Shown: positions 2,877-38,492, counted from the stretch's first letter. The stretch: DNA of 64,000 nucleotides from an uncultured Leptospirales bacterium (GCA_964491265.1 CAZBFP010000007.1:58177-122176); one strand, 5' to 3'. Numbers and translations are program-made. Notes: a model not told the origin generated them from the sequence alone.

Positions 2877-4046
2877 ATGAAAAAATCATTATATTCATTC
2901 ATTGCAATTTTTTTCTGCACTTGGTCGGTTTTATCCTGTTTTAATGAAAATCAGTTTGAAAAGCTGAAGGTCTATAATGAATCGGGGAGCAGTGATTTAC
3001 CTGTATATGTAAATGTACTTGAAGTAACGCCGGCTGCGGGCGGAGTATACGTATCAGTTAATACGAATATTTCTGTTCAGTTTGATGATAATATTGAAAT
3101 GTCTACAGTTTCGTTATCCACATTTTCTGTAAACAGCGGAGCTGTATCAGGATCTTTCTTCTATAATGATCAGACAAAAACTGTTAGATTCGATCCGGAT
3201 GCTGCACTGGATTATAATACGTTCTATACTGTGACATTAACAAAAGGGATAACTAACCCTGTCGGGGAAACCCTGGCATCCGATTATTCATGGTCCTTTA
3301 CAACAATTGCATCCGCTCAGCCGAACATTGAGGTATCTTCTACGCTGGGGCTGTTAAATTCCGGAGGCACATGGGATTACGGGAGTGTTATCACAGATAA
3401 TAGCAAACCAGCAGATTTTAACATTAATAATAGCGGCAGCGATGTACTGAATATTACCGGAATGACCATTACCGGAGCAGATGCATCTCTTTTTGCAATT
3501 GATCCTCCCCTTACATTTCCACTTGTTGTTAATACGACTTTATCTGCCAGTGTAACTGCAAATTTCAGCCCCGGGGATGTGGGATTAAAAAATGCTGTTT
3601 TGACAATAGACAGCGACGATCCAAATGATCCTGAATTTATTATCTATCTTACAGGGAGAGGGCTTGATGCAGGGGCAGAGGAGCCGGAGATTCAGGTAAC
3701 ATTAAGCGGTACAGATGTTATCAGCGGCTCCACAAAAGTGAGCTTTGGAACAATACCTCTGGGAACCAGTATGGAAATTACTCTGGTTATGTCAAATATC
3801 GGGAGTGCTGACCTTACTATTTCCAGCGTTGATATTACAGGTGAAAATCCGGATAAGTTCACTACGAATTTTCTTTCATTATATTCACCTTTGCCATTTT
3901 ATATTGCACCTGGTGAAAATAAAGAATTCAAGATTACTTTTTCACCCGGTTTTGACAAAGGGATGAAACTGGCGGAAATCAAATTTGTTAACAATGATAC
4001 TAATGAGTCACCATTTATTCTTCTGGTAAGAGGAAGAGGATTCTGA
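2877..4046 (+). CDS. secreted protein with Ig-like (SbsA/Big-like) domains
   Basis: 389 aa; signal peptide; repeated Ig-like segments (VLEVTPAAGGVYVSVNTNISVQFDDNIEMSTV...); GGAGGGG RBS before ATG. Confidence 0.5.
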   Translation: MKKSLYSFIAIFFCTWSVLSCFNENQFEKLKVYNESGSSDLPVYVNVLEVTPAAGGVYVSVNTNISVQFDDNIEMSTVSLSTFSVNSGAVSGSFFYNDQTKTVRFDPDAALDYNTFYTVTLTKGITNPVGETLASDYSWSFTTIASAQPNIEVSSTLGLLNSGGTWDYGSVITDNSKPADFNINNSGSDVLNITGMTITGADASLFAIDPPLTFPLVVNTTLSASVTANFSPGDVGLKNAVLTIDSDDPNDPEFIIYLTGRGLDAGAEEPEIQVTLSGTDVISGSTKVSFGTIPLGTSMEITLVMSNIGSADLTISSVDITGENPDKFTTNFLSLYSPLPFYIAPGENKEFKITFSPGFDKGMKLAEIKFVNNDTNESPFILLVRGRGF

Positions 4047-4138
4047 AACGGTTCCGGAACTGTATTCAGCCGGATACCGGTGTCTTTATCAGCTCGCAAT
4101 AGTACTTAAAATTAATCTATAAGCTAAGGGCGGCTCTT

Positions 4139-6013
4139 ATGTCAAATGAAGCTAACCTGGGGGGGAGGAAAAAATTATTTTTCCCAATCAGTTTAAAACT
4201 GGTAACAATGATTTTCAGCATAGTCCTTGTTTCTCTCCTTTCTGTGACCATAGCAGCAACATATTTTTTCCGCAATGATAATAAAATCCGGGCCATGGAG
4301 GATACCCTCAACTACTCCACCCTTATTGCCGGGAAAGTAAATTCAGATCTAAATTCTATTCTGGAAAAAGGGAGGCTTGCAGCAATAATTCTTCAGGGGG
4401 GAAAATCTGCCGGTAATGTGAAAGGGTTTGCTGAGATGATATTTGCCAGTGATCCGGATATGATATTTGCAGGGATAATGAAAAAGGATAATCCAGGGTC
4501 ATTGCGGTTTATGCATAACAGCGGTTATTTTTTGAAAAGAGGGATTACTGCTGATTTCAACACTGTAATTAAAGCGGAATATGGGGTTATATCCAGGTCC
4601 TTTGCCGGAGAGGATATTCTTTTTAATCCTTCTTTTTATTTTAATGAACCTGTGATTGGATTATCTGTTCCCTATGACAGCAGCATAACCGGTACTGTTA
4701 TTATTATTTTCTACTCAATGGATAAAATTCTGGAGTCTATTTCCACAGGGGGTGTAATAGAAAGCTTTATCGTTTCAGGGAAGGGGGATCTGATTGCCCA
4801 CAGGGATATGGATCTTGTTAAATCTAAAACTAACTACCAGTCTATGCCTGTCATCAGGATGATGATGACAAATCCTAATCCGAATGCCCAGACCTCTTTT
4901 AAAGATGACAGCGGCGTGAGTTTTCTTGGAGCATTCAGCAGGACCCGATTTTCTGATGCTGCAGTCATATCTATGGTTAATGAAGAGACTGCCTTTGCAA
5001 TGGTTTATAAAATCCAGAAAATCGTCATTTGGCTTACCGGGATTGTTCTTTCGATCTCATTTTTAATAAATTATTTTTTTTCCCGGTCATTGAGTAATCC
5101 CATTACCAGGCTTACCCGTGCATCTGATGAAATTAAAAAGGGGCATTATGATATAGAAATCTCATCAGAATCAAGGGATGAAATAGGTATCCTTACAGAT
5201 TCTTTTCAGGATATGGCTAGAGGACTTGCTGAAAGGGAGAATATAAAAACGGCCTTTGGTAAATTCGTCAATAAGCAGATTGCAGAACTGGTTATGAAAG
5301 GGGAGGTGAAGCTTGGAGGTGAGAAGAAAGATGTGGTGGTTTTATTTTCCGATATCCGGTCATTTACTGAAATGGCTGAAACAATGGAACCTGAAGAGGT
5401 AGTGGAATTTCTGAATCAGTATATGACACGCATGGTGCGCTGTATAACCAAAAGTAAAGGGTTTGTGGATAAATATATTGGTGACGCAATTATGGCAGTC
5501 TGGGGAGCCCCTGTGAGTACAGGTAATGACGCATTTTATGCAATTAATGCAGCACTTATGATGAGACAGGAATTATCTGATTTTAACAGGGAAAGATTTG
5601 AGAAAGGTAAAAATCATGTTCATATCGGCTGCGGAATTCATTGCGGCCCTGTTCTTTCCGGACAGATAGGATCAGAGGACAGGATGGAATATACTGTTAT
5701 TGGTGATACAGTAAATATTGCATCACGTATAGAAGCATTAAATAAAGCCTTTGCAACAGATATACTTATAACAGAGGAGACCGCCCGCAGGGTCACAGGT
5801 ATTTTCAGACTTGAACCGATGCAGATGATTAAGGTTAAAGGGAAAAGTGATCCGATGCAGATCTACGCGGTTCTGGGGCGTAAGGCCGATCATGATACAC
5901 CTGGAAATACAATAGAACTTAGAAAACTGATAGGAACAGAGGGATTCCTGAAACAGAAAGGGGGTAATTTTACCGCTCCGGTTAAAGAGGAGAAATATGA
6001 AGTCCTGGACTAG
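4139..6013 (+). CDS. adenylate/guanylate cyclase with periplasmic Cache-like sensor, HAMP and class III cyclase domain
   Basis: 624 aa; two TM segments flanking a periplasmic domain; HAMP; cyclase motifs FSDIRSFTEMAE, YIGDAIMAVWGAP, TVIGDTVNIASRIE. Confidence 0.85.
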   Translation: MSNEANLGGRKKLFFPISLKLVTMIFSIVLVSLLSVTIAATYFFRNDNKIRAMEDTLNYSTLIAGKVNSDLNSILEKGRLAAIILQGGKSAGNVKGFAEMIFASDPDMIFAGIMKKDNPGSLRFMHNSGYFLKRGITADFNTVIKAEYGVISRSFAGEDILFNPSFYFNEPVIGLSVPYDSSITGTVIIIFYSMDKILESISTGGVIESFIVSGKGDLIAHRDMDLVKSKTNYQSMPVIRMMMTNPNPNAQTSFKDDSGVSFLGAFSRTRFSDAAVISMVNEETAFAMVYKIQKIVIWLTGIVLSISFLINYFFSRSLSNPITRLTRASDEIKKGHYDIEISSESRDEIGILTDSFQDMARGLAERENIKTAFGKFVNKQIAELVMKGEVKLGGEKKDVVVLFSDIRSFTEMAETMEPEEVVEFLNQYMTRMVRCITKSKGFVDKYIGDAIMAVWGAPVSTGNDAFYAINAALMMRQELSDFNRERFEKGKNHVHIGCGIHCGPVLSGQIGSEDRMEYTVIGDTVNIASRIEALNKAFATDILITEETARRVTGIFRLEPMQMIKVKGKSDPMQIYAVLGRKADHDTPGNTIELRKLIGTEGFLKQKGGNFTAPVKEEKYEVLD

Positions 6014-8069
6014 CATAGTTCTTGTTCTGAGTCTTTCCCTGGCCGGATTCAGTTCTTATTTTCTCTACAGGGAGCTGACATCCCGTATTGAAAAAACAGG
6101 TGAGGATGCAATCGGGACAATTACTTTTAAAAAGAGAAGTGCTTCACGAAGATATAATGATACAATTGTATGGGAGGAGATTGAAGAGGAGTCGGAAATA
6201 TACAACTATGACGCTATCCGTACACTCGATTATTCTGCTGCAGTAATAAACCTGAAAAACGGCACAGCCATTGAACTTGCTGAAAATACAATGCTCATTG
6301 TTGTTCTTGATGACACCGGTGTGAATATTAATTTTGACCGTGGGGGGATTTCTGCGAGAACAGGCGCAGGCGATCAGGGGCTGGTAAGGCTTAATTCCAG
6401 CGATGCTTCAATATCTTTCACCGGAGGGGATATTTCTCTAAACAGAGGGGATTCAGGTATGGATATTCAGGTGAATTCAGGTAATGCTGAAGTTTCAGCA
6501 TCTGGTGAAAATATTGATCTTTCATCTGACACGGTTTTTTCCCTGAGAAATGGTAAAACAGAATTCAGGGAGGGGCGGCTTATACCGCTCTTTCCGAAAA
6601 ATAATGGAGTGATTGTAACTTTTGGCTCCAGGGCTCTCTTCGATTTGTCCTGGGAAAGCGATATGGAGGGTGACATTAAGATTGAATTATCACGTAACAG
6701 TTCCTTTTCTCCGGTATTGACCTCGTATAATACAAAAAGCAGAAATGTAAGAGTAAGCCAGGGTGAAGGGAACTATTACTGGAGACTTGTTAAAGGGGAT
6801 GTAACAAGTATACCCGCCCGGTTTTCTGTTGCTGCAGACAGAAGGCCGAAGCTTCTTGCACCGCAGAACAACCGGAAAGTTGCAATGATAGAGGGATCGG
6901 ATATGGTTTCATTTCGCTGGGAAAAGAGTGATCTGGCCTCATCGTATGAAGTAACAGTGGCTTCAGACAGTCAAATGACAGATATTGTTCTGAAGCTTGC
7001 TTCAAGAGTGAATTCCATATCAACAGATCAGCTTAAGCCTGGACAATACTACTGGAAAGTAAGGAGCATCTATCCTGAGCAGGTTGCTGCTGAAGGGGCC
7101 GAGTCTTCTCAGGGGAGGTTTACTCTTGAACGAAGCGTCTTCGCCCTGGCAAAGCCTGTACCTCTTAATCAGGGGGCGGTAACTACAGCAGGGCCGTTCC
7201 GGTTAGGCTGGACCGGTGTTCCCGGAGGGAAGTCGTACCGTATCGAAATATCTTCAGATAAAGATTTCCGGAATATTATTACTTCTGCTGAGTCGGATAA
7301 AACATTCATTCACATTAATGAAGTTCTATCTCCAGGCAGATATTACTGGAGAGTAGGGGCGTTTAGGGGTGACCTTGTTTCTGCTTTCTCTGATACTGCG
7401 GTTCAGGAGATAATAAATCCGCTTGATATTATCCCGCTTTCTCCGGCTGCCGGAGCTGTAATTGTCCCCGGTATAGAAAGTATAAGATTTGCCTGGAGAG
7501 ATCCCAACAGGGGCGGGAAATATCTCTTCGAATTATCTGAAGACAGGGATTTTGTTCCAAAGAAAATTGTCCGGGAGGCGGACTTACCCTCTGCGGATGT
7601 AAAAAATCCGGGGCCCGGTGTTTATTTCTGGAGAGTAATACTGCAGGGGGAAGGGGGTAAATTCCTGGCAGGGAGTCCTGTGCAGAATTTTTCTGTGCCG
7701 CGTATACTTACAGCTCCTCAGCCCCTTTCTCCTGACAATAATGAAAAGGTGATGCCCCTTGTAAAAAGGAAGCTCAGGTTTGAATGGGTAAGGTCAGCAG
7801 AGGCTGATGAATATGAGGTGGAAATTTTCCAGCGCATTGCCGGTGCTGAAAGGTCATTAAGTATTTTTTCATCTAAAGCCGGGTATCTTGAAATAACCAA
7901 TGTGTCAATATTCGGCCCCGGCAATTACAGCTGGGTAGTAAGGGCGAAAAAACTGAGCAGGGGGAGGATTACAGGTTATGTTGAGTCTGAAAGATTTTTC
8001 TTCGAAGTCCGGGAACCGGATATTCTTCCTCCGCCTGTAGTGAAAAAACCAGAAATTATTTTTTATTAG
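5997..8069 (+). CDS. FecR-like domain protein with multiple Fn3/Ig-like repeats (exported)
   Basis: 690 aa; N-terminal TM/signal; FecR-like beta-rich segment; repeated ~90-aa modules with YYWRV/YFWRV motifs; overlaps cyclase stop (operon). Confidence 0.5.
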   Translation: MKSWTSIVLVLSLSLAGFSSYFLYRELTSRIEKTGEDAIGTITFKKRSASRRYNDTIVWEEIEEESEIYNYDAIRTLDYSAAVINLKNGTAIELAENTMLIVVLDDTGVNINFDRGGISARTGAGDQGLVRLNSSDASISFTGGDISLNRGDSGMDIQVNSGNAEVSASGENIDLSSDTVFSLRNGKTEFREGRLIPLFPKNNGVIVTFGSRALFDLSWESDMEGDIKIELSRNSSFSPVLTSYNTKSRNVRVSQGEGNYYWRLVKGDVTSIPARFSVAADRRPKLLAPQNNRKVAMIEGSDMVSFRWEKSDLASSYEVTVASDSQMTDIVLKLASRVNSISTDQLKPGQYYWKVRSIYPEQVAAEGAESSQGRFTLERSVFALAKPVPLNQGAVTTAGPFRLGWTGVPGGKSYRIEISSDKDFRNIITSAESDKTFIHINEVLSPGRYYWRVGAFRGDLVSAFSDTAVQEIINPLDIIPLSPAAGAVIVPGIESIRFAWRDPNRGGKYLFELSEDRDFVPKKIVREADLPSADVKNPGPGVYFWRVILQGEGGKFLAGSPVQNFSVPRILTAPQPLSPDNNEKVMPLVKRKLRFEWVRSAEADEYEVEIFQRIAGAERSLSIFSSKAGYLEITNVSIFGPGNYSWVVRAKKLSRGRITGYVESERFFFEVREPDILPPPVVKKPEIIFY

Positions 8070-8080
8070 GCGGCCGAAGA

Positions 8081-9154
8081 ATGAGATCGTGCTCATTAAT
8101 TATATTATTAGTTGTTATTACAACGCTCACATGGGCTGATTCCAGGCGCAGACTTACCTGGGAACCTGTATCCGGAGCCGGGGGATACTATCTGCAAATC
8201 AGGGATTCGGCAGGTATAATTATTTCTGAAGTTACTGTTAAAGAAAATTTTCATGAAATTACTGATCTTCAGTCAGGGAATTATTCATTCAGAGTTGCCA
8301 CTGTTAATCTGCTGAATCAGAAGGGGGAGAGTTCCCCCTGGATAAATTTCACTATTGAAAAACTAATTGTTCCTGAAGTGCATTCAGCTTCAATTCGGCA
8401 GCTTGTTGCTTCTGCAATAAGCAGAGATATTGTAGTAAAGGGTAATAATTTTAACAGATCAAGCAGGTTCTTTCTGCGGAGTTCCGGCGGTGATATCCCG
8501 GTAACGGCTGTAAATGTCAAATCGGAGAGAGAGGTTTATCTGGCTATTAAGACTGATGCGGGAATGGCCGGTTTATATGACCTGGTAGTGGTAAACAGAG
8601 GGGGAGCAGAAGCTGTATTATCGAAAGCCTTCAGGGTAGTGGAGAAAAAAGTCATTGAACAGAATTTTTTTCTGGCAGTTGCATATTCGGTTAATGTCCC
8701 AATCGGTGCATGGAGCGAATATTTCTCACCTTCCTTTACCGGAGCTTCATTATATTTTCAGATCCCCTTTTTTTTATCAGGCTCTGCGCAGTATTATTTT
8801 GAAACAGAACTTGATGTAGTGAGGTATAATATTACAGGGTCAACAACGGCGAGTTCATTCACCTTTATCTCCTCAGGTGCGGGCATTTCTTTTTACTATT
8901 TATTAAAGAATCCTGTTCATGTATTTGTAAAAGTTCTGGCTGGCCCGGTTTATAATATGATTGAAATGGAGGGAGGCAGCATTGAGAAGAGGAGTAGTTC
9001 TGTTGATCTTTATGCTTCTGCAGGTGCGGGCGTACGATATTTCCTAACAGATAATTTTTTTCTGGAACCTGCATTTTACTGGAGAACCGTTTTTATGGCA
9101 GAGGAGTTTTTGCATCATTCAGAAATTTCTTTATATGCGGGTGTGAGGTTCTGA
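8081..9154 (+). CDS. putative outer-membrane beta-barrel protein with N-terminal Fn3-like domain
   Basis: 357 aa; signal peptide; Fn3-like N-terminus; C-terminal alternating amphipathic strands ending in aromatic F (LYAGVRF). Confidence 0.45.
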   Translation: MRSCSLIILLVVITTLTWADSRRRLTWEPVSGAGGYYLQIRDSAGIIISEVTVKENFHEITDLQSGNYSFRVATVNLLNQKGESSPWINFTIEKLIVPEVHSASIRQLVASAISRDIVVKGNNFNRSSRFFLRSSGGDIPVTAVNVKSEREVYLAIKTDAGMAGLYDLVVVNRGGAEAVLSKAFRVVEKKVIEQNFFLAVAYSVNVPIGAWSEYFSPSFTGASLYFQIPFFLSGSAQYYFETELDVVRYNITGSTTASSFTFISSGAGISFYYLLKNPVHVFVKVLAGPVYNMIEMEGGSIEKRSSSVDLYASAGAGVRYFLTDNFFLEPAFYWRTVFMAEEFLHHSEISLYAGVRF

Positions 9155-10463: not shown

Positions 10464-10510
10464 AGCCTGTTGGAGAATTAAAGTAATCATTAACAGACTG
10501 AAAATTAAAA

Positions 10511-10550
10511 TTAAGGGGGCTTTAGACAGCCCCCTTAATGCTTTTAAAAA
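10511..10550. terminator. bidirectional rho-independent terminator hairpin (TTAAGGGGGC-loop-GCCCCCTTAA then T-run) between convergent genes
   Basis: Perfect 10-bp GC-rich stem followed by TGCTTTT on + strand, A-run on opposite side. Confidence 0.55.
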
Positions 10551-11590
10551 CCGATAAAAAAACCATTATTCTGTTTTGCAAGCCCTCTTAAAAAATTTAC
10601 AGCCGTGGTGTCTGAATTTTCCCTGAATTCACGACCTATCCCCACAGTGAAAATTTTTCTGTCCCTGCTGTTCATTTTTTTTATTGATAATAGAAATTGA
10701 TCAAGGGTCATTATCTTCTTTTTTAGTACATCCGGTTCTCCGTCACTAAAAAGTATTATCCCCTCAGCAGATGCGTAACGGCTTGAGTTGAGCACAAATT
10801 CCAGGGCCTGCTTGGTGGGTGTATCATGATATGCTTTCATGCAGGAAAGCTTCTGATAAAAATAGTATTTATCATCTTCACTTTGCAGCGGTTTAGGTTC
10901 ACCTTCGAAAAACCCGTATTTGTAGCACATGAGAGATTCATTGTCGTATGCATCATCTCTTCTTGAGTATGATAAACATTGAGGGTCCGGTGATGGTTTG
11001 ATTGCAAAGTCTTTGCATAGTTTAGAATCAATATTCTCTTCAAAAGCGGGGAAAAAAACTATATCTATTTTATAATTCTGATCCATTGATGCAATGTACA
11101 TTTTTATTGCTGCCTTAACCTGAGAAAGGCGGTCTTCATTGTCATCATTCCTGTCCGGGGCCATACTTCCCGATAAATCAACAAGCATAACAACAGATTT
11201 AGGTATCTGAAATGCCATAACACTTTTTTCTCCGGATGATGAAGGGAATTCAACTTTCAGATTTTTTATTGAATCAATGGTGTTGTTTATTTCACTTATA
11301 TTCTGCCGGAATAGTGATGCTATACTGATAAATTTTTCGTAAGCAGTTTTCCCATCAGGTTTAATATTCTGAATATCCTCACGTGCTTTTATCAGTTCAT
11401 CTCTGGTTATTATCAGCTCAGATGTTGTTGTCATTAATTCCGATTTTATATCCTGACACGATTCATTTTCAATCCCGATTTTCTGTGTAAGAAGAACAAC
11501 CATAATAACCATAACCGCTCCAAGCGCACCGGTCATAACATCGAGCATTGATAGATTGAATATGTTGAAATTTCTGTCAATTTTTCTCAT
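10544..11590 (-). CDS. membrane-anchored vWA domain protein with ExbD/TolR-like N-terminal TM and coiled coil
   Basis: 348 aa; N-terminus NLSMLDVMTGALGAVMVIMVVLL resembles ExbD/TolR anchor; MIDAS motif VMLVDLSGSM (DxSxS); C-terminal vWA fold signals (ILFSDGEP). Confidence 0.65.
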   Translation of the reverse strand: MRKIDRNFNIFNLSMLDVMTGALGAVMVIMVVLLTQKIGIENESCQDIKSELMTTTSELIITRDELIKAREDIQNIKPDGKTAYEKFISIASLFRQNISEINNTIDSIKNLKVEFPSSSGEKSVMAFQIPKSVVMLVDLSGSMAPDRNDDNEDRLSQVKAAIKMYIASMDQNYKIDIVFFPAFEENIDSKLCKDFAIKPSPDPQCLSYSRRDDAYDNESLMCYKYGFFEGEPKPLQSEDDKYYFYQKLSCMKAYHDTPTKQALEFVLNSSRYASAEGIILFSDGEPDVLKKKIMTLDQFLLSIKKMNSRDRKIFTVGIGREFRENSDTTAVNFLRGLAKQNNGFFIGF

Positions 11591-11604
11591 CTATTTGGCT
11601 GCCA

Positions 11605-12396
11605 TTATTTATCTGAATTATCTGAAGAGAGCCGGTTTATGAAATTATTGAGGACATAACGGGCGCTGTTATTGAGCGCCTCTTCCTCATGTTTCTGAAC
11701 CAGGTGTATAAGGAAAACCAGTATAGCTGTGTGAATAAGTGCAATAATAGTTGTTCCAAATGCGAATCCCAGATCAAGGGTGAGAGCGCGAAATTGAGCA
11801 ACCTTGTCCATATGCGCACCCATGAATTTTACAATATCGAGTTTACTTAGTGCCGCAGAGATTCCAATCACTGTTCCGATAAATCCGAATGTGGGAATTG
11901 CCCAGATTATGTACCGTAAAAAGGAATATCGGAGTTCCAGCCTGTGAATGTGCAGGTCAAGAGCACTGTTGAGCACTGAAAGGGTATCACTGACTGAGTG
12001 TGATTTCAAATATTGTATTGTACATGTGTCAATGAGGTCCGGCAGGAATGCGTCTGCACGGATTGTAACATTATTTACACTGGTTCGTATTATCTCAATT
12101 TCTCTGTCATTTGACAAAACAGTATTTTTATCTTCAGGAAGAAATCCTGATGCTTTTAAAAATACATTCTCTTCATGGCTGCTCAGCCATCTAATCCATA
12201 TCTGGGCAAGTCCGATAAAGAAAAAGAGATTCATGAGATTCTGAAGAGAAAATGGATAATGACTGGCACTCTGGTAACCCAGCAGCAGCTCTCCAAAAGG
12301 GGTGTCCCCTGCTAATTCGGTTATAGCAGTAATTGCAATAATAGATGTAAACACTGCTATTAGCAGTGCAAGCCAGTTTCTTCTGGTATAATTCAT
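11605..12396 (-). CDS. MotA/TolQ/ExbB-family proton channel protein
   Basis: ORF track 11605..12438; likely start ATG 12396 preceded by GGAGGG; conserved C-terminal TM pair IIWAIPTFGFIGTVIGISAAL ... LDLGFAFGTTIIALIHTAIL. Confidence 0.7.
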   Translation of the reverse strand: MNYTRRNWLALLIAVFTSIIAITAITELAGDTPFGELLLGYQSASHYPFSLQNLMNLFFFIGLAQIWIRWLSSHEENVFLKASGFLPEDKNTVLSNDREIEIIRTSVNNVTIRADAFLPDLIDTCTIQYLKSHSVSDTLSVLNSALDLHIHRLELRYSFLRYIIWAIPTFGFIGTVIGISAALSKLDIVKFMGAHMDKVAQFRALTLDLGFAFGTTIIALIHTAILVFLIHLVQKHEEEALNNSARYVLNNFINRLSSDNSDK

Positions 12397-12419
12397 TTTA
12401 GCAGGCCCTCCATGTTTTA

Positions 12420-13886
12420 CTAACGTCGGGGTACACATTTTTCGAATTTGTCATAATTATATCCTTCAATACATCCGCATTTATTACTGCTTTTGATCCA
12501 GATTTCATTTTTACCTCTGCATTTTTTTACACATACAAATTTATGGGGGCCGCTTTTCATTGCGATCCGATTTTCATCCTCTGCACATTTTGATACGCAT
12601 GAGCCCGATACATTTACTATGGGGCAGGGCTCGCATATATTTGTTTTTCTGTTGAGAGTATAGCCTTTGATGCAGACGCATGCATTTTTCTTTGCATCCC
12701 ATGTTTCTCCAACTCTGCAGACACATTCCCCTTCGCTGTTAACTATACCCCTTCTTTTTGAGCATTGGTCTTCCCAGAGAGCCCGGACTTTTACTTCCTG
12801 TTCATTACCTTTTTTTAGAGATAATTTCTCTTCGGCAAGCCGTTTTACTTCCTTGTTCAGTTGGATCTGTTTCTGTGTAATTTTTTTCTCTTCCTCTTCT
12901 CTTTCTTTCCCTTCAAGAGCAGTTTGAATAATTATTTTGGCCTTATCCAGGGCATCCTGATTCTGCTGAAGTTCTCTCTCCTTTTCATTAAGTCTTACCT
13001 GTGTACGGCTAAGTTGATCTTTGGCTGTATCAAGATCTGTTTTAACTTTTCCAAGGCTGGTTTTTGCAGTTTCCAGCTCCCCTTTTGTGCTGGAGAGAGT
13101 ATTCTCAAGCATAAGAATTTTACTTCTGGTGGTATCAAGTTCCCCGGTAATTTTGTTTAATTCATGTTCTGTTTCACTAAGCTTTCCCCGTGTCATTTCC
13201 AGATCTGTTTCTGTTTGTGACAATTTACCCTTTGTTTCGCTGAGACCGCTTTTTAAGCCTTCCACTTCACCTTGAAGTTTCCAGTTGCGGTATATAGCCT
13301 GCTGTCTTTTTTCGAAGAGATATTCTCCCCGGGAAAAGCTGTATGTAACAGCAACCCCCCATTGGAGTTCATTTTTCATCGATTTGTTGATTACTATTGC
13401 CGGGGCGCCGTATAATGTAAACTGTACCGGATAATTATCCAGCGGCAATGTAACCCCAATGGGGAAGCGGGTAATGTATTCAGGATCATTTTTTATATAC
13501 GATAGCATTAATCCTGCGCCTATGGTCAGGTAAAAGTTCCATGTACCGGCATGAAACATTCCAAAGGGCTGATAAAGAAAGTCCGCAGCAATGAGAGGTT
13601 CAGAGTCAAGGCTGAAACCTGATAATATCTCCATTCCATACCGGTCACTGAACCAGTATCTCATGGTAAAACCGCTGGGTATACCGATAAGACCGCCCAC
13701 CTCAAGGCCTGTGCGTGAATAGGTGTAGGTTGTGGATTGGGGAGATATTTCAGGTTTTTCTCTATTCTCGCGTGCTTCTTTCGCTTCAAGTGCATCAATT
13801 GAGTCATCATCCAATTGAGCATTCCCTGGTATTATCACACTGAACAGAAAAAGGATTGTGATCACTGAAAGAAGTTTATGTGCCAT
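12420..13886 (-). CDS. exported protein: N-terminal small beta-barrel-like domain, long coiled coil, Cys-rich (EGF-like) C-terminus
   Basis: 488 aa; signal peptide MAHKLLSVITILFLFSVIIPGNAQ; heptad-rich repeats LSETKGKLSQTETDLEMTRGKLSETEHEL...; about 20 Cys in last 120 aa. Confidence 0.5.
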   Translation of the reverse strand: MAHKLLSVITILFLFSVIIPGNAQLDDDSIDALEAKEARENREKPEISPQSTTYTYSRTGLEVGGLIGIPSGFTMRYWFSDRYGMEILSGFSLDSEPLIAADFLYQPFGMFHAGTWNFYLTIGAGLMLSYIKNDPEYITRFPIGVTLPLDNYPVQFTLYGAPAIVINKSMKNELQWGVAVTYSFSRGEYLFEKRQQAIYRNWKLQGEVEGLKSGLSETKGKLSQTETDLEMTRGKLSETEHELNKITGELDTTRSKILMLENTLSSTKGELETAKTSLGKVKTDLDTAKDQLSRTQVRLNEKERELQQNQDALDKAKIIIQTALEGKEREEEEKKITQKQIQLNKEVKRLAEEKLSLKKGNEQEVKVRALWEDQCSKRRGIVNSEGECVCRVGETWDAKKNACVCIKGYTLNRKTNICEPCPIVNVSGSCVSKCAEDENRIAMKSGPHKFVCVKKCRGKNEIWIKSSNKCGCIEGYNYDKFEKCVPRR

Positions 13887-14131
13887 AATTATTCATCCTT
13901 ATCGTACAGTTCAACGCTTTAATAATACATTGCGGTGATTGGAATCTATTTGAAATGAACTATTTCTTAAAAATTAAGGAAATATTTTTATGTAGTTTAC
14001 TCCCCTGACTTGATGATAATATAGCGTTTTCAATTAGTGTTTACAAGTTTTTCTGTAATTAATGGCGTATTATTAACATAAAAATAAGTATTCAAATTTT
14101 ACTTTCAAGGTTTTGTAAAGAATTTTTCAGA

Positions 14132-15755: not shown

Positions 15756-18700
15756 TTAATTGATTTTCTGTATAGTAACCAGTGTTAAATCATCATCAAA
15801 ATCTGAAGATCCGCTGTAATTACTTATTGCTTTAATAATCTTCCTGTTAAACTGCTCAAGGGACTTTTTGTGATAATTCTGCTGAATAAGCCTGCTGATC
15901 AGCGGAATCAGCTTTTCGTAACCGAATTCTGTTTTGTCTGAATTTACTGCTTCCAGCAATCCGTCTGTAAAAAGAATAAGAATATCTCCGCGTTTAAAAG
16001 GGACTCTCCCCGGTTCATATCTTGAGTCATCAGTAAAACCGATTAATCGTCCCCGTTTATTGAGAAGCTCAATTTCCCCTGTATCACTATGGAGGAGTAT
16101 CTGGTCAGGGTGACCGCCTGATGAATATACGATTTCATCTTCAGTAATATTGCACAAAAAAGATGTGAAAATATTTTTCCCTTTCAGGTTGTGATAGGAA
16201 AAATTATTTATATAATAAAGCCGCTTATCCGGCTCAACAAGCTTAAGGCTCTGGTTGTTCATAATATCAATCTGCATGGTAAAGAGGGCAGCCTGAATTC
16301 CGTGTCCTGTTGCATCTGCCACCATGATGGAGATAGCCCCGTTATCAAGAACTTCAACATTGTAATAGTCGCCGCCCACCTTTTTGTTATGGGGAATATA
16401 GGATACCTCAATTTCAAAATTTTTTATAGAGGTGTAAAAATCTTTACCTGTAAGCACCCCTTTTTGAACTTTCATGGCAATGTCAAGTTCCTGTTCCATA
16501 ATAAGAAGTTCTTTCTGGTCCTGCATTGCTTTTTTAAGTCGAAGTAATGTATTCACCCGTGCAAGGAGTTCCCGTTTGTCAAAAGGTTTTACCAGGTAAT
16601 CATTTGCACCTGCATCGAATCCTTCAATAAGATCATTGATAAGTCTCTTTGCAGTCAGCATAATAACCGGGAGTTCGTTCTGATTGTATTTTTGTCTAAT
16701 CTCACGGCAGACTTCATAACCTGAAAGACGGGGCATCATTACATCAAGAAGAATAAGATCGGGCTTCCCTGCATTGGCTATATGTTCAAGTGCTTCAATT
16801 CCGTTGGAGGCTTCTGTAATGCTGTACTGATACGGCATAAAATGGTTACGTAATACCTGAAGATTTACCGGGTCGTCATCAACGATTAAAATATTAAATG
16901 TCGAATTTCCCCTGTTTTTCGAATCTTCATTGTTATCGGTCAGTTGACCAAAATTAATATTGTCCAGGTCGTATTCCAGCTTGCTCACTGCGCGTGCAGT
17001 ATTTGCCTCATAGTTTTCCGAGATGGGAATTGTAAAAGTAAAGGAGGACCCTTTGCCTGATTCAGAAACAACACTAATTGTACCACCATGGAGCTCAATA
17101 AGTTTTTTTGAAATTGCAAGGCCCAGTCCGGTACCTCCATATTCTCTTTCTGTTGAACCGTCACCCTGCTGGAAGGAGTTGAAAATGGTATCAAGTTTTT
17201 CAGGAGGAATTCCTATCCCCGTGTCACTTACAGTTACGGCAATCATTCTTTTATTGTTTTCAGTTACAATCTTATCAGTAACCTCGATCTTCCCTTCTCT
17301 GGTGAATTTAACTGCATTTCCAATGAGATTGTAGAGAATCTGCTGGAGCCTGTTTTCATCTCCAAGAACCGGAGGGAGATGGTAATCTATTTTATTGGAA
17401 AGAGTAACCGGTCTTGAGCCAATAAGTGTTTTTGAGATCATAAGAACGTGATCAACCATGGAGTATAGATCAATTGACTGCTGCATTAGTTCAATATTGC
17501 TGTTTTTCATTTTTTCAAAATCGAGTATATCATTGACAAGGCTGGAAAGCCTGCGGGCGCTTGATTCTATGAGTTTAAGGTTGTATTTGTGTGTGTCACT
17601 CATCTCCCCCATTGATCCGTCGCTCATTGACTCGGAGAGGCCTATTATTCCGTTAAGCGGTGTACGGAGCTCGTGTGAGGTGTTTGCCAGGAATTCATCT
17701 TTCAGCTGATCCATGGCAATGAGCTGACGGTTCACCTGTTTTAATTCACCTGAGAGTCTTTCAGAAGTTTCAAATACCGTGGTAAAGCGGCGTGACAGAA
17801 GGTATGATTGAGAGAGTATATAGAATACAAGACCATAGGAGGCTGTATTTAAGGTGTTGATTACCTGGCTATTGTAGAGGATATCATTAATCCCGGTGAG
17901 ATAAAGTACTGACATGCCGGAAAAGGCGACTATAGCGCCATCTCTTTTGCGGTATATGGCTAATGCGAGTACCGCTAAAATAATGAAACCGCCTATAAGT
18001 ATAAATAGATCGTAAAAAATTTTACCCTGGCTGTAATATTGCAGGGGCAGAAATATTACGAGGAGCACAATGACTGCAGCAATAGAAAATATAGGAATTG
18101 TTATTCTTTTTTTCATTTCCAGCGGGAACACGGTATAAAAGAATAAAACAATAAGTGGAATCATCCCGTATGAGGTGAGATACTCAATTTTACTGAAAAA
18201 CTCCCAGTTTATAGACGGGAACCAGGAAACCAGGAATCTTTCTCCTGTTGTCAGTGACCTGAATGCCATACATATTGTTAATATGGAGAAAATCAGCGCT
18301 GATTTTTCCCCCGGCCTTAAATAAAAAATTCCCAGATGGTACAGGGACATTATAATTATGATTCCCAGAACAAGAAAAGCTATCTGCGTGTTTTTTTCCC
18401 GCTCAGCAGCAATAGTAATTTCAGGACCAATATGGAGGCTCTCCCACATCCCCCCTTTTTTATGATGAAAATTTGATACCTGAACAATTATTTCAGCTTC
18501 ACTTTTCTTATCCTCCTTATCTGCAGGATTGCAAAAGAAAACTGTGCGCGGAAGAAACTGTGGAACGCCTCTCTCATCAGATACTTCACCGTTTTCTGAA
18601 AGGAGTTCTCCATTAACCCATAGCCTGTAGGCTGTTGCAGCATCAAGTATTTTAAGGCCTATTCGCCCTTTATTCACGGGGAGAAAAACCTTTATTCTGT

Positions 18701-19037
18701 AGGTGGCATAACCGCTCCCCGGGAGCACCCCTTGAGGATGGTTCATTCCATTCCATAGAGAAGGAACCTTTATGTATACAGGATCATCTATAACAGATTT
18801 ACCGGAGAAGTCATGGGGGTAGTAAAGCTTCTCCCAGTAGAATTCCCATTCTCCGTCAAGGGGGAAGTTCCTGTCGAAATCTTCAGATGACAGATTTAGA
18901 ACCCCTTTTTCAGCCTGCTGAATTGCGGGCCGGGGAGTACATGAGATTAAAATCAGAGATGATATAATATATAGAAGTATAACTGTCTTTCTTATCATAT
19001 GGAGATAATGGTTATCTGAAATACAGTGTAAAGTCAA
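15756..19037 (-). CDS. hybrid sensor: 7TMR-DISM periplasmic domain + 7TM + HisKA/HATPase + receiver + PP2C/SpoIIE phosphatase
   Basis: 1093 aa; H-box SHELRTPLNGIIG; N/G boxes (LIGNAVKFT, DTGIGIP, GGTGLGL); receiver D (LILLDVMMP); PP2C motifs (GDYY...ADATGHG...FTDGL). Confidence 0.8.
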   Translation of the reverse strand: MTLHCISDNHYLHMIRKTVILLYIISSLILISCTPRPAIQQAEKGVLNLSSEDFDRNFPLDGEWEFYWEKLYYPHDFSGKSVIDDPVYIKVPSLWNGMNHPQGVLPGSGYATYRIKVFLPVNKGRIGLKILDAATAYRLWVNGELLSENGEVSDERGVPQFLPRTVFFCNPADKEDKKSEAEIIVQVSNFHHKKGGMWESLHIGPEITIAAEREKNTQIAFLVLGIIIIMSLYHLGIFYLRPGEKSALIFSILTICMAFRSLTTGERFLVSWFPSINWEFFSKIEYLTSYGMIPLIVLFFYTVFPLEMKKRITIPIFSIAAVIVLLVIFLPLQYYSQGKIFYDLFILIGGFIILAVLALAIYRKRDGAIVAFSGMSVLYLTGINDILYNSQVINTLNTASYGLVFYILSQSYLLSRRFTTVFETSERLSGELKQVNRQLIAMDQLKDEFLANTSHELRTPLNGIIGLSESMSDGSMGEMSDTHKYNLKLIESSARRLSSLVNDILDFEKMKNSNIELMQQSIDLYSMVDHVLMISKTLIGSRPVTLSNKIDYHLPPVLGDENRLQQILYNLIGNAVKFTREGKIEVTDKIVTENNKRMIAVTVSDTGIGIPPEKLDTIFNSFQQGDGSTEREYGGTGLGLAISKKLIELHGGTISVVSESGKGSSFTFTIPISENYEANTARAVSKLEYDLDNINFGQLTDNNEDSKNRGNSTFNILIVDDDPVNLQVLRNHFMPYQYSITEASNGIEALEHIANAGKPDLILLDVMMPRLSGYEVCREIRQKYNQNELPVIMLTAKRLINDLIEGFDAGANDYLVKPFDKRELLARVNTLLRLKKAMQDQKELLIMEQELDIAMKVQKGVLTGKDFYTSIKNFEIEVSYIPHNKKVGGDYYNVEVLDNGAISIMVADATGHGIQAALFTMQIDIMNNQSLKLVEPDKRLYYINNFSYHNLKGKNIFTSFLCNITEDEIVYSSGGHPDQILLHSDTGEIELLNKRGRLIGFTDDSRYEPGRVPFKRGDILILFTDGLLEAVNSDKTEFGYEKLIPLISRLIQQNYHKKSLEQFNRKIIKAISNYSGSSDFDDDLTLVTIQKIN

Positions 19038-38418: not shown

Positions 38419-38492
38419 TCGGGGTGACAGGATTTGAACCTGCGACCACATGACCCCCAGTCATGTGCGCTACCTGGCTGCGCTACACCCCG
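38419..38492 (-). tRNA. tRNA-Pro (anticodon GGG)
   Basis: Reverse complement CGGGGTGTAGCGCAGCCAGGTAGCGCACATGACTGGGGGTCATGTGGTCGCAGGTTCAAATCCTGTCACCCCGA folds as cloverleaf; anticodon loop CTGGGGG; T-loop GGTTCAAATCC; CCA not encoded. Confidence 0.85.

What the first reader, a model, noticed from the sequence alone, without database searches (positions are those of the whole stretch)
10544..13886. Three-gene envelope operon: MotA/TolQ/ExbB-like channel flanked by an ExbD/TolR-like anchor fused to a vWA domain and an OM-barrel / coiled-coil / Cys-rich protein
Seen in the sequence, as tightly spaced minus-strand genes:
- A signal-peptide protein with a small beta-barrel-like N-domain, about 200 aa of heptad coiled coil, and a C-terminal module with about 20 Cys (EGF-like).
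- A 263-aa MotA/TolQ/ExbB homolog with the conserved TM2-3 hairpin.
- A protein whose N-terminal TM resembles the ExbD/TolR anchor (NLSMLDVMTGALGAVMVIMVV), followed by a coiled coil and a vWA domain with an intact MIDAS motif (DLSGSM).

Established knowledge: MotAB, ExbBD, TolQR and ZorAB stators convert proton-motive force into mechanical work on a partner protein.

Inference: here the B subunit itself carries a metal-dependent adhesion (vWA) domain, and the third partner spans the periplasm with a rod-like coiled coil. This would be a proton-motive-force-energised envelope machine of unknown role (trans-envelope signalling, a defence sensor like Zorya, surface-adhesin display, or a gliding-like function). 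I do not recognise it as a described system.
Basis: partly seen in the sequence, partly recalled or inferred. Interest (0 to 1): 0.65.

Follow-up and report, generated by a model that had tools for sequence, protein, structure and literature searches.

The report
Spirochaete envelope motor with vWA axle
This is a three-gene operon that probably builds a proton-driven membrane motor whose central axle protein ends in a metal-dependent adhesion (vWA) domain, paired with an outer-membrane barrel protein on a long stalk; the motor-plus-vWA core was predicted by computer in 2025, but the outer-membrane partner and the spirochaete version have not been described.

Summary
Three tightly spaced minus-strand genes (C 12420-13886, A 11605-12396, B 10544-11590) end at a strong terminator hairpin.

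- A is a MotA/ExbB/TolQ-family protein with the channel motifs intact.
- B has a basic N-terminus and one TM helix with an invariant Asp17, in a motif resembling TolR/ExbD. A helical linker follows, then a confident vWA fold with a complete MIDAS site.

No ExbD/TolR/MotB gene is present. A pairs with a gene bearing this TM helix in 55 of 58 well-flanked genome loci across many phyla. C-A-B is kept in all 16 spirochaete-clade loci, where the flanking genes differ.

New here are the single-B spirochaete form and its dedicated outer-membrane partner C. Also new is that non-spirochaete relatives sit in FHA/PP2C/Ser-Thr-kinase/CHAT clusters.

Best model: a 5:2 ion-driven motor linked to the outer membrane through vWA and C. 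The biological role is unknown. Verdict: new variant of a known kind.

The parts
12420..13886 (-). Gene C (488 aa): secreted outer-membrane barrel, coiled-coil stalk and EGF-like Cys-rich head
   Evidence: ORF. AF2 model with pLDDT 71. Homologs occur only in the spirochaete clade and always lie upstream of A-B.
13821..13886 (-). Signal peptide of C (aa 1-22, MAHKLLSVITILFLFSVIIPGNA|Q), with no lipobox Cys
   Evidence: Read from the sequence. Hydrophobic segment 1-26. Helix 2-22 in the model.
13335..13715 (-). C N-terminal 8-stranded beta-barrel domain (about aa 58-184)
12765..13334 (-). C coiled-coil stalk (about aa 185-374; helices 184-265 and 285-377 with a low-confidence break at 266-283)
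   Evidence: AF2 secondary structure. Only coiled-coil-type noise hits in Pfam and NCBIfam. Repeated GKLSxTExxL units are visible in the alignment.
12423..12764 (-). C C-terminal Cys-rich EGF-like module (aa 375-488; 14 invariant Cys; conserved C-terminal VPRR)
   Evidence: Cys positions and two C-x-C-x2-G-Y-x(7,8)-C patterns. Invariance. pLDDT 72-87 with beta-hairpins. The same module occurs as tandem repeats in P0300, which scores above the cut-off for Pfam cEGF.
11605..12396 (-). Gene A (263 aa): MotA/ExbB/TolQ-family ion-channel subunit, probably with 4 TM helices and the N-terminus in the cytoplasm
   Evidence: PF01618 scores 39.1 bits against a cut-off of 22.9. Hydropathy gives TM segments 6-30, 162-184 and 207-235, plus a weaker segment at 52-70 that aligns to TolQ TM1. 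164 homologs.
11845..11913 (-). A pore helix with the invariant motif W-x-I-P-x-x-G-F-x-G-T175-V-x-G-I (aa 162-184)
   Evidence: Invariant columns P168, G171, F172, G174, T175, V176, G178. T175 aligns to TolQ T145.
11692..11778 (-). A last TM helix with invariant A212-F213-x-T215-T216 (aa 207-235)
   Evidence: Invariant columns. T216 aligns to TolQ T178 in hhalign.
10544..11590 (-). Gene B (348 aa): basic N-terminus, trans-pore-type TM helix with Asp17, helical linker and periplasmic vWA domain
   Evidence: ORF. 88 homologs with conserved length. Alignments A1 and A4. AF2 model.
11486..11560 (-). B TM helix (aa 11-35, FNLSMLDVMTGALGAVMVIMVVLLT). The Asp17 codon is at 11540-11542.
   Evidence: S14, L16, D17, A22 and G24 are invariant across vWA and non-vWA partners from several phyla. 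The best local alignments put D17 on ExbD D25 and TolR D23, but they are not significant.
11204..11485 (-). B periplasmic helical linker (about aa 36-129; helices 46-74 and 83-109, low to moderate confidence)
   Evidence: AF2 secondary structure. Variable length among homologs.
10547..11203 (-). B vWA domain (aa 130-348). MIDAS residues are D138-x-S140-x-S142 (nt 11165-11179), T257 and D283. A Cys-containing insertion lies at about aa 185-250.
   Evidence: VWA_2 and VWA above cut-off. pLDDT above 90. Foldseek matches ITIH1/ITIH4, alpha2delta, integrin I-domains, CLCA1 and LapA vWA. Invariant MIDAS columns.
10510..10539 (-). Intrinsic-terminator-like hairpin (12-bp stem, 6 GC pairs, T-run) closing the operon
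13887..14131 (-). AT-rich upstream intergenic region, the presumed promoter region of the operon. No specific promoter is established.
   Evidence: Sequence. Weak sigma-70-like matches at 14108-14081 and 14046-14016 do not exceed the shuffled expectation.

Best explanation
The operon encodes a stand-alone envelope machine built on an ion-driven MotA/ExbB/TolQ-type motor.

- Shown: A has the conserved pore motifs of this superfamily.
- Shown: B is its obligate neighbour and has a single N-in TM helix with an invariant Asp.
- Shown: no ExbD/TolR/MotB gene is present.
- Inferred: A forms the pentameric ring and two copies of B form the central axle, with Asp17 facing the Thr175/Thr216 ring. Ion flow turns A relative to B.
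- Shown: B continues into the periplasm as a helical linker ending in a vWA domain with a complete metal-binding MIDAS site.
- Shown: C is exported and its model carries an OmpA/OprF-type 8-stranded barrel, about 190 residues of helix and a disulfide-rich EGF-like head.
- Inferred: the barrel sits in the outer membrane and the stalk projects into the periplasm. The EGF-like head is the ligand that the B vWA domain grips through its MIDAS metal. The inner-membrane motor is thereby physically coupled to the outer membrane without a TolA/TonB-type adaptor or a peptidoglycan-binding domain.

The coupling could deliver force to the outer membrane, as Tol-Pal and Ton do. It could instead hold the axle still so that the ring turns. 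The physiological output is unknown.
For: - A belongs to the family and keeps its motifs: PF01618 above cut-off; invariant PxxGFxGTVxGI and AFxTT; T175 and T216 align with TolQ T145 and T178.
- B has a basic N-terminus and a TM helix with invariant S14, L16, D17, A22 and G24, including in distant phyla and in non-vWA partners.
- The best local alignments to E. coli ExbD and TolR put D17 on D25 and D23.
- No ExbD/MotB/OmpA hit occurs in the operon or its flanks.
- A and a TPH-bearing gene co-occur in 55 of 58 well-flanked loci from many phyla.
- An independent published AF3 model of related proteobacterial pairs places the helix inside the pentamer, with the Asp ringed by Thr (PMC12204202).
- The vWA fold and MIDAS site are confirmed.
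- The C-A-B order is kept in all 16 spirochaete-clade loci and in a more distant locus, L093, while flanking genes are not conserved.
- The operon has tight spacing and a terminator.
Against:
- The TM helix of B is not significantly similar to ExbD/TolR/MotB.
- The vWA-C contact is inferred only from synteny and predicted location.
- AF2 leaves open whether the stalk of C is one long rod or a hairpin (low pLDDT at 266-283). A hairpin would put the Cys head back near the outer membrane.
- Close A-B relatives (L001, L025, L026) work without a C gene.
- Most relatives in other phyla sit in phospho-signalling clusters rather than with an outer-membrane partner.
Confidence: 0.5

Rival explanations
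1. The complex is an envelope-sensing or defence/signalling device rather than a force transducer. C and the vWA head would detect an outer-membrane or periplasmic event. The A-B complex would relay it across the inner membrane to cytoplasmic partners, by analogy with Zorya or with vWA-bearing Ser/Thr-kinase pathways.
For: - In non-spirochaete relatives the A-TPH pair is embedded in conserved clusters with FHA proteins, PP2C phosphatases, Ser/Thr kinases fused to FGE-sulfatase domains, and divergent TPR-CHAT proteins.
- Some contexts hold reverse transcriptase and AAA_15/AAA_21 ATPases.
- There is a weak PADLOC ZorA2 hit, E 5e-4.
Against: - No kinase, phosphatase, FHA, CHAT, nuclease or other effector is conserved next to the spirochaete module. 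Only C, A and B are shared among 15 loci.
- A is short (263 aa) and has no ZorA-like tail.
- B has no peptidoglycan-binding domain, and the ZorA hit covers only the MotA core.
- The module lies among ordinary housekeeping and signalling genes in the window.
Confidence: 0.2
2. C is only a static anchor, not the load. By gripping the OM-anchored C, the B dimer is immobilised, as MotB is by peptidoglycan. The A ring then rotates and does its work on an unidentified inner-membrane or cytoplasmic target.
For: - B lacks any OmpA-like or ExbD-like periplasmic domain that could anchor it.
- The cytoplasmic loop and C-terminal tail of A are highly conserved: nearly invariant L118-P119, Q128, N143-S144, and the C-terminal Y247-x-L-x-N-x-I-N254. 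This suggests a conserved cytoplasmic interface.
- Relatives pair with cytoplasmic FHA proteins.
Against: - No conserved cytoplasmic partner gene exists in the spirochaete loci.
- The cytoplasmic part of A is small (about 90 plus 28 residues), like ExbB/TolQ rather than the torque-generating MotA.
Confidence: 0.15
3. It is not a working motor. A and B would form a passive membrane scaffold that displays a periplasmic vWA adhesin, and C would be an unrelated outer-membrane protein that merely shares the transcript.
For: - The TM helix of B cannot be shown statistically to be homologous to ExbD/TolR/MotB.
- A is only remotely similar to solved stators (best E 1e-4).
Against: - The buried Asp and both Thr-bearing pore motifs are invariant across phyla and about 25-40% identity. 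That is hard to explain without ion-coupling selection.
- C-A-B synteny is strict while the flanks turn over.
Confidence: 0.1

Closest known systems
[quoted passage not shown]
   Same: - A TM-tethered vWA protein lies next to a TolQ/MotA-like gene.
- There is no TolR/ExbD gene.
- There is no SHLS motif.
- The TM helix carries a conserved Asp.
- Thr residues are conserved in the A subunit.
- HMMs built from the spirochaete proteins hit the proteobacterial paired vWA genes (TPH E 1e-10 to 1e-14; vWA E 1e-7 to 1e-12) and their MotA-like gene (E about 1e-90).
   Different: - The published family is mostly two different vWA genes in tandem, in Proteobacteria and Verrucomicrobia. Here there is a single vWA gene, with a longer coiled-coil linker and a Cys-containing insertion, in Spirochaetota.
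- The paper mentions no outer-membrane partner like C, and no kinase, phosphatase or FHA context.
- Identity with the paper's exact family is inferred from its description. No accessions were available in the held supplement.
TolQR-TolA-Pal and ExbBD-TonB trans-envelope systems
   Same: - The A subunit belongs to the same superfamily; TolQ is the best solved match.
- The partner has a single TM helix with a conserved Asp.
- The presumed purpose is to link inner-membrane ion flow to an outer-membrane protein.
   Different: - There is no ExbD/TolR periplasmic domain and no separate TolA/TonB adaptor.
- The axle protein itself carries the reach-out domain (vWA).
- The outer-membrane partner is an 8-stranded barrel with a coiled-coil stalk, not a TonB-dependent transporter or Pal.
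- A probably has 4 TM helices with the N-terminus inside, like MotA, rather than 3.
MotAB/PomAB flagellar stator
   Same: - The A family is shared and the probable 4-TM topology is the same.
- The B subunit has an N-in TM helix with an essential Asp.
- The B subunit must be anchored in the envelope.
   Different: - There is no MotB plug or OmpA-like peptidoglycan-binding domain.
- The cytoplasmic domain is small.
- There is no flagellar gene context.
- Matches to the NCBIfam MotA/PomA models fall far below their cut-offs.
Zorya ZorAB anti-phage motor
   Same: It is a non-flagellar MotAB-like pair. There is a weak PADLOC ZorA2 match over the MotA core.
   Different: - A has no long ZorA tail.
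- There is no ZorB peptidoglycan-binding domain.
- No ZorC, ZorD or ZorE effectors are present.
- The context is not a defence island.
OM barrel + coiled-coil stalk tethers such as OmpM/SlpA of diderm Firmicutes and Deinococcus-Thermus, and OprF/OmpA (architecture recalled from memory; fold hits)
   Same: It has an outer-membrane beta-barrel joined to a long periplasmic coiled coil, ending in a head domain that binds an inner envelope layer.
   Different: - The domain order is reversed: barrel first, head last.
- The barrel is a small 8-stranded one.
- The head is an EGF-like disulfide module, not an SLH or OmpA-like peptidoglycan binder.
- The gene is linked to a motor.

Membership tests
MotA/ExbB/TolQ proton-channel superfamily (gene A) | Match to Pfam PF01618 above the gathering score | tested here: met
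   39.1 bits against a cut-off of 22.9, residues 147-250 of the 277-aa ORF. All 164 homologs carry PF01618.
MotA/ExbB/TolQ proton-channel superfamily (gene A) | Conserved pore-lining residues on the last two TM helices (P-x-x-G-x-x-G-T and a Thr on the final helix, equivalent to TolQ T145/T178) | tested here: met
   P168, G171, G174, T175, T215 and T216 are invariant in 22 diverse sequences. T175 aligns to T145 and T216 to T178 in hhalign against E. coli TolQ and in hmmsearch against PDB TolQ. That these Thr residues are functionally essential is from the literature (PMC12204202).
MotA/ExbB/TolQ proton-channel superfamily (gene A) | Pentamer around a dimer (5:2), with ion-driven rotation | not testable with these tools
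ExbD/TolR/MotB 'B subunit' (gene B) | Single N-in TM helix with a conserved protonatable Asp near its cytoplasmic end | tested here: met
   D17 is invariant in 21, 44 and 21 sequences. The basic N-terminus (R2, K3, R6) and the acidic flank after the helix indicate N-in, C-out (read from the sequence).
ExbD/TolR/MotB 'B subunit' (gene B) | Detectable sequence homology to ExbD/TolR/MotB | tested here: inconclusive
   There is no Pfam or NCBIfam ExbD/MotB hit at E up to 1. The TPH profile finds no ExbD/TolR/MotB among PDB sequences. hhalign gives the right register (MLDVM/FIDVM; EINIF..LDV/EINIVPLLDV), but E is 0.31 and 0.71.
ExbD/TolR/MotB 'B subunit' (gene B) | Periplasmic ExbD/TolR-fold or OmpA-like peptidoglycan-binding domain | tested here: not met
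   The periplasmic domain is a vWA fold.
Published TolQ-like + TPH-vWA family (PMC12204202) | A TM-tethered vWA protein encoded next to a TolQ-like gene, with no TolR/ExbD gene nearby | tested here: met
   A and B are 14 nt apart. No ExbD/TolR/MotB is found in the operon or its flanks. The pairing holds in 55 of 58 loci.
Published TolQ-like + TPH-vWA family (PMC12204202) | The helix lacks the SHLS/His motif of TolA/TonB and carries a conserved Asp | tested here: met
   The helix FNLSMLDVMTGALGAVMVIMVVLL has no His or SHLS (read from the sequence). D17 is invariant.
Published TolQ-like + TPH-vWA family (PMC12204202) | vWA genes occur predominantly as heterologous pairs | tested here: not met
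   There is one vWA gene in the window and in every spirochaete locus. Pairs are seen in gammaproteobacterial and alphaproteobacterial loci.
Published TolQ-like + TPH-vWA family (PMC12204202) | Sequence homology to the proteobacterial members | tested here: met
   HMMs from the spirochaete family hit the paired proteobacterial genes: TPH E 1e-10 to 1e-14, vWA E 1e-7 to 1e-12, MotA-like E about 1e-90. The link to the paper's exact seed (Idiomarina) could not be checked.
Zorya (ZorAB + effectors) | ZorA with a long C-terminal tail, ZorB with a peptidoglycan-binding domain, and ZorC/D/E-type effector genes | tested here: not met
   There is only a weak ZorA2 core hit, E 5e-4. B and C have no PADLOC hit other than coiled-coil noise. 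A is 263 aa. The neighbours are PhnA, SPFH and HIT genes, among others.
Small 8-stranded outer-membrane beta-barrels (OmpA/OprF-N/OmpW/NspA type; gene C N-domain) | Fold match to solved OM barrels, plus an export signal | tested here: met
Small 8-stranded outer-membrane beta-barrels (OmpA/OprF-N/OmpW/NspA type; gene C N-domain) | Sequence-family membership (Pfam OMP_b-brl or DUF3996) | tested here: inconclusive
   C itself gives no hit. Stand-alone homologs give sub-threshold OMP_b-brl and DUF3996 hits.
EGF-like domains (gene C C-terminal module) | EGF-type Cys pattern and a family-model match | tested here: inconclusive
   There are two matches to C-x-C-x2-[GP]-[FYW]-x(4,8)-C (pattern recalled from PROSITE EGF_2). 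C has no Pfam EGF hit. A relative with tandem copies of the module (P0300) scores above the cut-off for cEGF. Disulfide connectivity was not tested.

The most novel reading that the evidence does not exclude
Spirochaetota may carry a third kind of trans-envelope energy coupler, alongside Ton and Tol. In it the axle of a 5:2 ion motor is itself the force transducer. Its vWA head would grip, through a MIDAS metal, the EGF-like tip of a dedicated outer-membrane barrel-on-a-stalk protein. Inner-membrane ion flow would then pull or twist an outer-membrane protein directly, with no TolA/TonB adaptor and no peptidoglycan anchor. The wider family (TM helix + coiled coil + exchangeable head: vWA, Sel1 or unknown) would be a general plug-in motor used with phospho-signalling modules in other phyla.
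Probability: 0.35. Interest if true: 0.75.

Novelty: new variant of a known kind. Interest (0 to 1): 0.58.

Why it matters
Ion-driven 5:2 motors (MotAB, ExbBD, TolQR, GldLM, ZorAB) are the only known way bacteria deliver inner-membrane energy to the rest of the envelope. Each new partner set has revealed a new biological function.

- **A complete minimal version.** This module offers motor ring, axle with a built-in adhesion domain, and a candidate outer-membrane receptor, all in three genes. That makes the published but untested vWA-axle prediction directly testable by co-expression, cryo-EM, and MIDAS and Asp mutants.
- **A new clue to function.** Relatives in other phyla sit in FHA/PP2C/Ser-Thr-kinase/CHAT clusters. 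This points to a link between such motors and phospho-signalling that the published description does not mention.

Tried and rejected
- **PADLOC scan for defence membership.** It gave only a weak ZorA2 core hit and coiled-coil noise, so Zorya was rejected.
- **Sequence proof that the B helix is ExbD/TolR/MotB-like.** I tried Pfam and NCBIfam, a helix-only profile against PDB sequences (only chance Orco hits), and hhalign against E. coli ExbD and TolR. None was significant.
- **Conserved flanking genes in spirochaete loci.** None were found.
- **C-like barrel or Cys modules in non-spirochaete loci, and paralogs in the window.** None were found.
- **Identifiers for the published vWA family.** The paper's held supplement gives none.
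- **Experimental or other descriptions in the literature.** Searches found only PMC12204202.
- **Rfam and tRNA scans.** Nothing relevant lies near the operon.
- **Promoter scan.** Matches do not exceed the shuffled expectation, so no promoter is claimed.
- **TolA/TonB-like vWA transducer family (SHLS motif, beside tolQ plus two tolR).** I considered and rejected it: B has no His/SHLS motif and there are no tolR genes.
- **Bat-type aerotolerance vWA proteins.** I considered and rejected these: the NCBIfam BatA score is 13 bits against a cut-off of 380.

Full report
**Observation.**
Three ORFs lie head-to-tail on the minus strand: C at 12420-13886 (488 aa), A, and B at 10544-11590 (348 aa). A is best started at 12396, giving 263 aa. 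Homologs begin MNYS/TRRNW and a GGAGG lies about 11 nt upstream. The gaps are 23 nt and 14 nt. A hairpin with a 12-bp stem and a T-run follows B at 10539-10510. The neighbours are unrelated: a PhnA/YjdM gene upstream, and a convergent SPFH/Band-7 gene downstream. The window has about 40% GC, and the closest relatives are Spirochaetota/Leptospirales metagenome-assembled genomes.

**Gene A.**
Pfam MotA_ExbB scores 39.1 bits against a cut-off of 22.9. NCBIfam TolQ, PomA and MotA models and PADLOC ZorA2 give only weak sub-threshold hits. A profile of 22 family members finds TolQ as the best solved relative at E 1e-4, then MotA and PomA at E 0.02-0.05. A is therefore a distinct branch of the superfamily.

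The alignment shows invariant P168, G171, F172, G174, T175, V176 and G178, and invariant A212, F213, T215 and T216. In hhalign against E. coli TolQ (E 1.4e-4), T175 aligns with T145 and T216 with T178. These are the Thr residues that ring the partner's Asp in known motors (as described in PMC12204202).

Hydropathy gives strong TM segments at 6-30, 162-184 and 207-235. A weaker, highly conserved hydrophobic segment at about 52-70 aligns to TolQ TM1. A MotA-like four-helix topology with the basic N-terminus inside is therefore likely; this is an inference.

**Gene B.**
B starts with a basic stretch (R2, K3, R6) and then the helix FNLSMLDVMTGALGAVMVIMVVLL. S14, L16, D17, A22 and G24 are invariant in three alignments. 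These span 25-90% identity, several phyla, and partners that lack a vWA domain.

Direct tests for ExbD/TolR/MotB homology were negative or non-significant. There is no Pfam or NCBIfam hit, and no PDB ExbD/TolR/MotB hit with a helix-only profile. hhalign aligns MLDVM to ExbD FIDVM (D25) and EINIF..LDV to TolR EINIVPLLDV (D23), with E 0.31 and 0.71. The register is right, but the evidence is a motif resemblance and not proof.

The rest of B is two predicted helices (46-74 and 83-109, low confidence) and a vWA domain at 130-348 with pLDDT above 90. Foldseek matches the vWA domains of ITIH1/ITIH4, calcium-channel alpha2delta, integrins, CLCA1 and the LapA adhesin. The MIDAS residues D138, S140, S142, T257 and D283 are invariant in 44 sequences. 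The N-in orientation and four Cys in a vWA insertion fit a periplasmic location (inference).

**Gene C.**
The AF2 model (mean pLDDT 71) shows:
- a signal-peptide helix and a disordered linker;
- beta strands 60-183 (pLDDT about 80-89);
- helices 184-265 and 285-377, with an uncertain break between them;
- a beta-hairpin module 380-488 (pLDDT 72-87).

An exhaustive profile search found stand-alone homologs of this domain, 150-185 aa long. They give sub-threshold OMP_b-brl and DUF3996 hits and have aromatic C-termini.

The C-terminal module has 14 Cys, all invariant. It has two EGF_2-type patterns. The module recurs as tandem repeats in P0300, which scores above the cut-off for Pfam cEGF.

**Conservation.**
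- The MotA-like family was found in at least 516 species genomes.
- Among the 80 best loci, 58 have at least 3.5 kb of flank on both sides. Of these, 55 hold a gene with the same N-terminal helix, and two of the other three have weak adjacent hits.
- In all 16 spirochaete-clade loci the order is C, A, B.
- BLAST of window genes against 15 of those loci shows that only these three genes are shared. Their flanks differ.
- A more distant locus (L093; C about 30% and B about 50% identical) keeps the same order.
- Identities run 56-81% for A, 50-78% for B and 32-66% for C.
- Three loci with a 361-381-aa B (L001, L025, L026) lack a C-like gene.

**The wider family.**
- Gammaproteobacterial loci carry two tandem helix-vWA genes, a small FHA protein, the MotA-like gene, an FHA/PP2C protein, a Ser/Thr kinase with an FGE-sulfatase domain, an acidic protein, and a divergent TPR-CHAT protein.
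- Alphaproteobacterial loci interleave FHA proteins with two helix-vWA genes.
- In Acidobacteria, Acidimicrobiia and others, the MotA-like gene pairs with a helix-plus-coiled-coil protein. Its head is unknown, or Sel1 repeats, or a divergent vWA.
- None of these loci has a C-like gene.

**Literature.**
PMC12204202 (Mol Biol Evol 2025) describes, purely in silico, TM-tethered vWA genes that co-occur tightly with tolQ homologs and no tolR/exbD gene. The proteins lack the SHLS motif and have a trans-pore helix with a conserved Asp. AF3 places that helix inside the TolQ-like pentamer, ringed by Thr. The genes are mostly in heterologous pairs, in Proteobacteria and Verrucomicrobia, and the function is unknown. 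The paper does not mention Spirochaetes, kinases, phosphatases or FHA. No other relevant paper was found.

**Interpretation.**
The A-B pair is best read as a 5:2-type ion motor whose axle subunit carries a vWA head. The spirochaete form is a single-B variant with its own outer-membrane partner. The proposed vWA-to-C contact, and hence a direct motor-to-outer-membrane link, is inferred from strict synteny, predicted locations and vWA/MIDAS chemistry. It is not shown.

The alternatives are a sensing or signalling role (supported by the family's context elsewhere but not by the spirochaete loci), C as a mere anchor for the axle, and a non-motor scaffold. Membership in Zorya, Ton/Tol proper or MotAB is rejected on defining features.

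**Verdict.**
The novelty level is 'new variant of a known kind', and interest is moderate to high.

Noticed in passing
L036-L038, L041-L048, L053, L056, L066, L069, L077, L079-L083 (gammaproteobacterial loci); L007/L008 (Kiloniellales); L028, L031, L040, L051, L063, L064: Outside Spirochaetota the MotA-like/TM-helix pair is embedded in a conserved cluster. Its members are small FHA proteins, PP2C phosphatases, Ser/Thr kinases fused to an FGE-sulfatase domain, an acidic protein of about 337 aa, and a divergent TPR-CHAT (caspase-like) protein. The 2025 paper that describes the vWA pairs does not mention this phospho-signalling context.
   Followed up: partly
L009 3760-9518 and L093 6218-7104: Some family members lie next to a reverse transcriptase (RVT_1), an HRDC protein and AAA_15/AAA_21/AAA_23 ATPases. 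This is a defence-island-like neighbourhood. In L009 the TM-helix partner (261 aa) has no vWA domain.
   Followed up: no
L068 8687-10219; L039 8800-10518; L028, L040, L046 partners: The axle-type helix is a portable module. It is followed by a coiled coil and then different heads: vWA, Sel1 repeats, or small domains with no Pfam match.
   Followed up: partly
L061 (Pseudomonas sp. WN033, contig NSKG01000001.1, 274488-291183): A cultured isolate carries a family member: a MotA-like gene and a 294-aa helix-vWA protein about 3 kb apart, with PP2C and kinase genes around them. It could serve as an experimental model.
   Followed up: no
L001 7260-8558: In a locus that lacks gene C, the gene directly after the helix-vWA gene encodes a 432-aa ankyrin-repeat protein. 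It may be an alternative partner.
   Followed up: no
L003/L004 6001-7206 (Sphingobacteriales, CP064999.1): A 401-aa protein has the same TM helix and a vWA domain but no adjacent MotA-like gene. A PP2C_2 phosphatase is divergently upstream. Either the motor gene lies elsewhere or this protein works alone.
   Followed up: no
P0232 (817 aa; found): This relative of gene C has two barrel-plus-coiled-coil units in tandem before a single Cys-rich head.
   Followed up: no
window 15756-19037 (-): A large hybrid sensor combines 7TMR-DISM, HisKA, HATPase, a receiver domain and a SpoIIE/PP2C phosphatase. It lies 2 kb upstream of the operon. It is not conserved near the module in other spirochaete loci, so it is probably unrelated.
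   Followed up: partly
window 2877-9154 (+): A run of plus-strand genes encodes envelope or signalling proteins: a Big_5/Ig-like protein (2877-4046), a HAMP-adenylate/guanylate cyclase (4139-6013), a FecR-domain protein with repeated modules (5997-8069), and a 357-aa protein with an Ig-like N-terminus and a beta-rich C-terminus (8081-9154).
   Followed up: no
window 38419-38492 (-): A single tRNA-Pro (GGG) is the only Rfam or ARAGORN hit in the 64-kb window.
   Followed up: yes
L025 (DYRY01000006.1, labelled Anaeromyxobacter dehalogenans MAG): Its MotA-like gene and 381-aa helix-vWA gene closely resemble those of L001, an unclassified bacterium. Given the spirochaete-like affinities of the genes, the taxonomic label of this MAG contig may be a binning artefact.
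   Followed up: no
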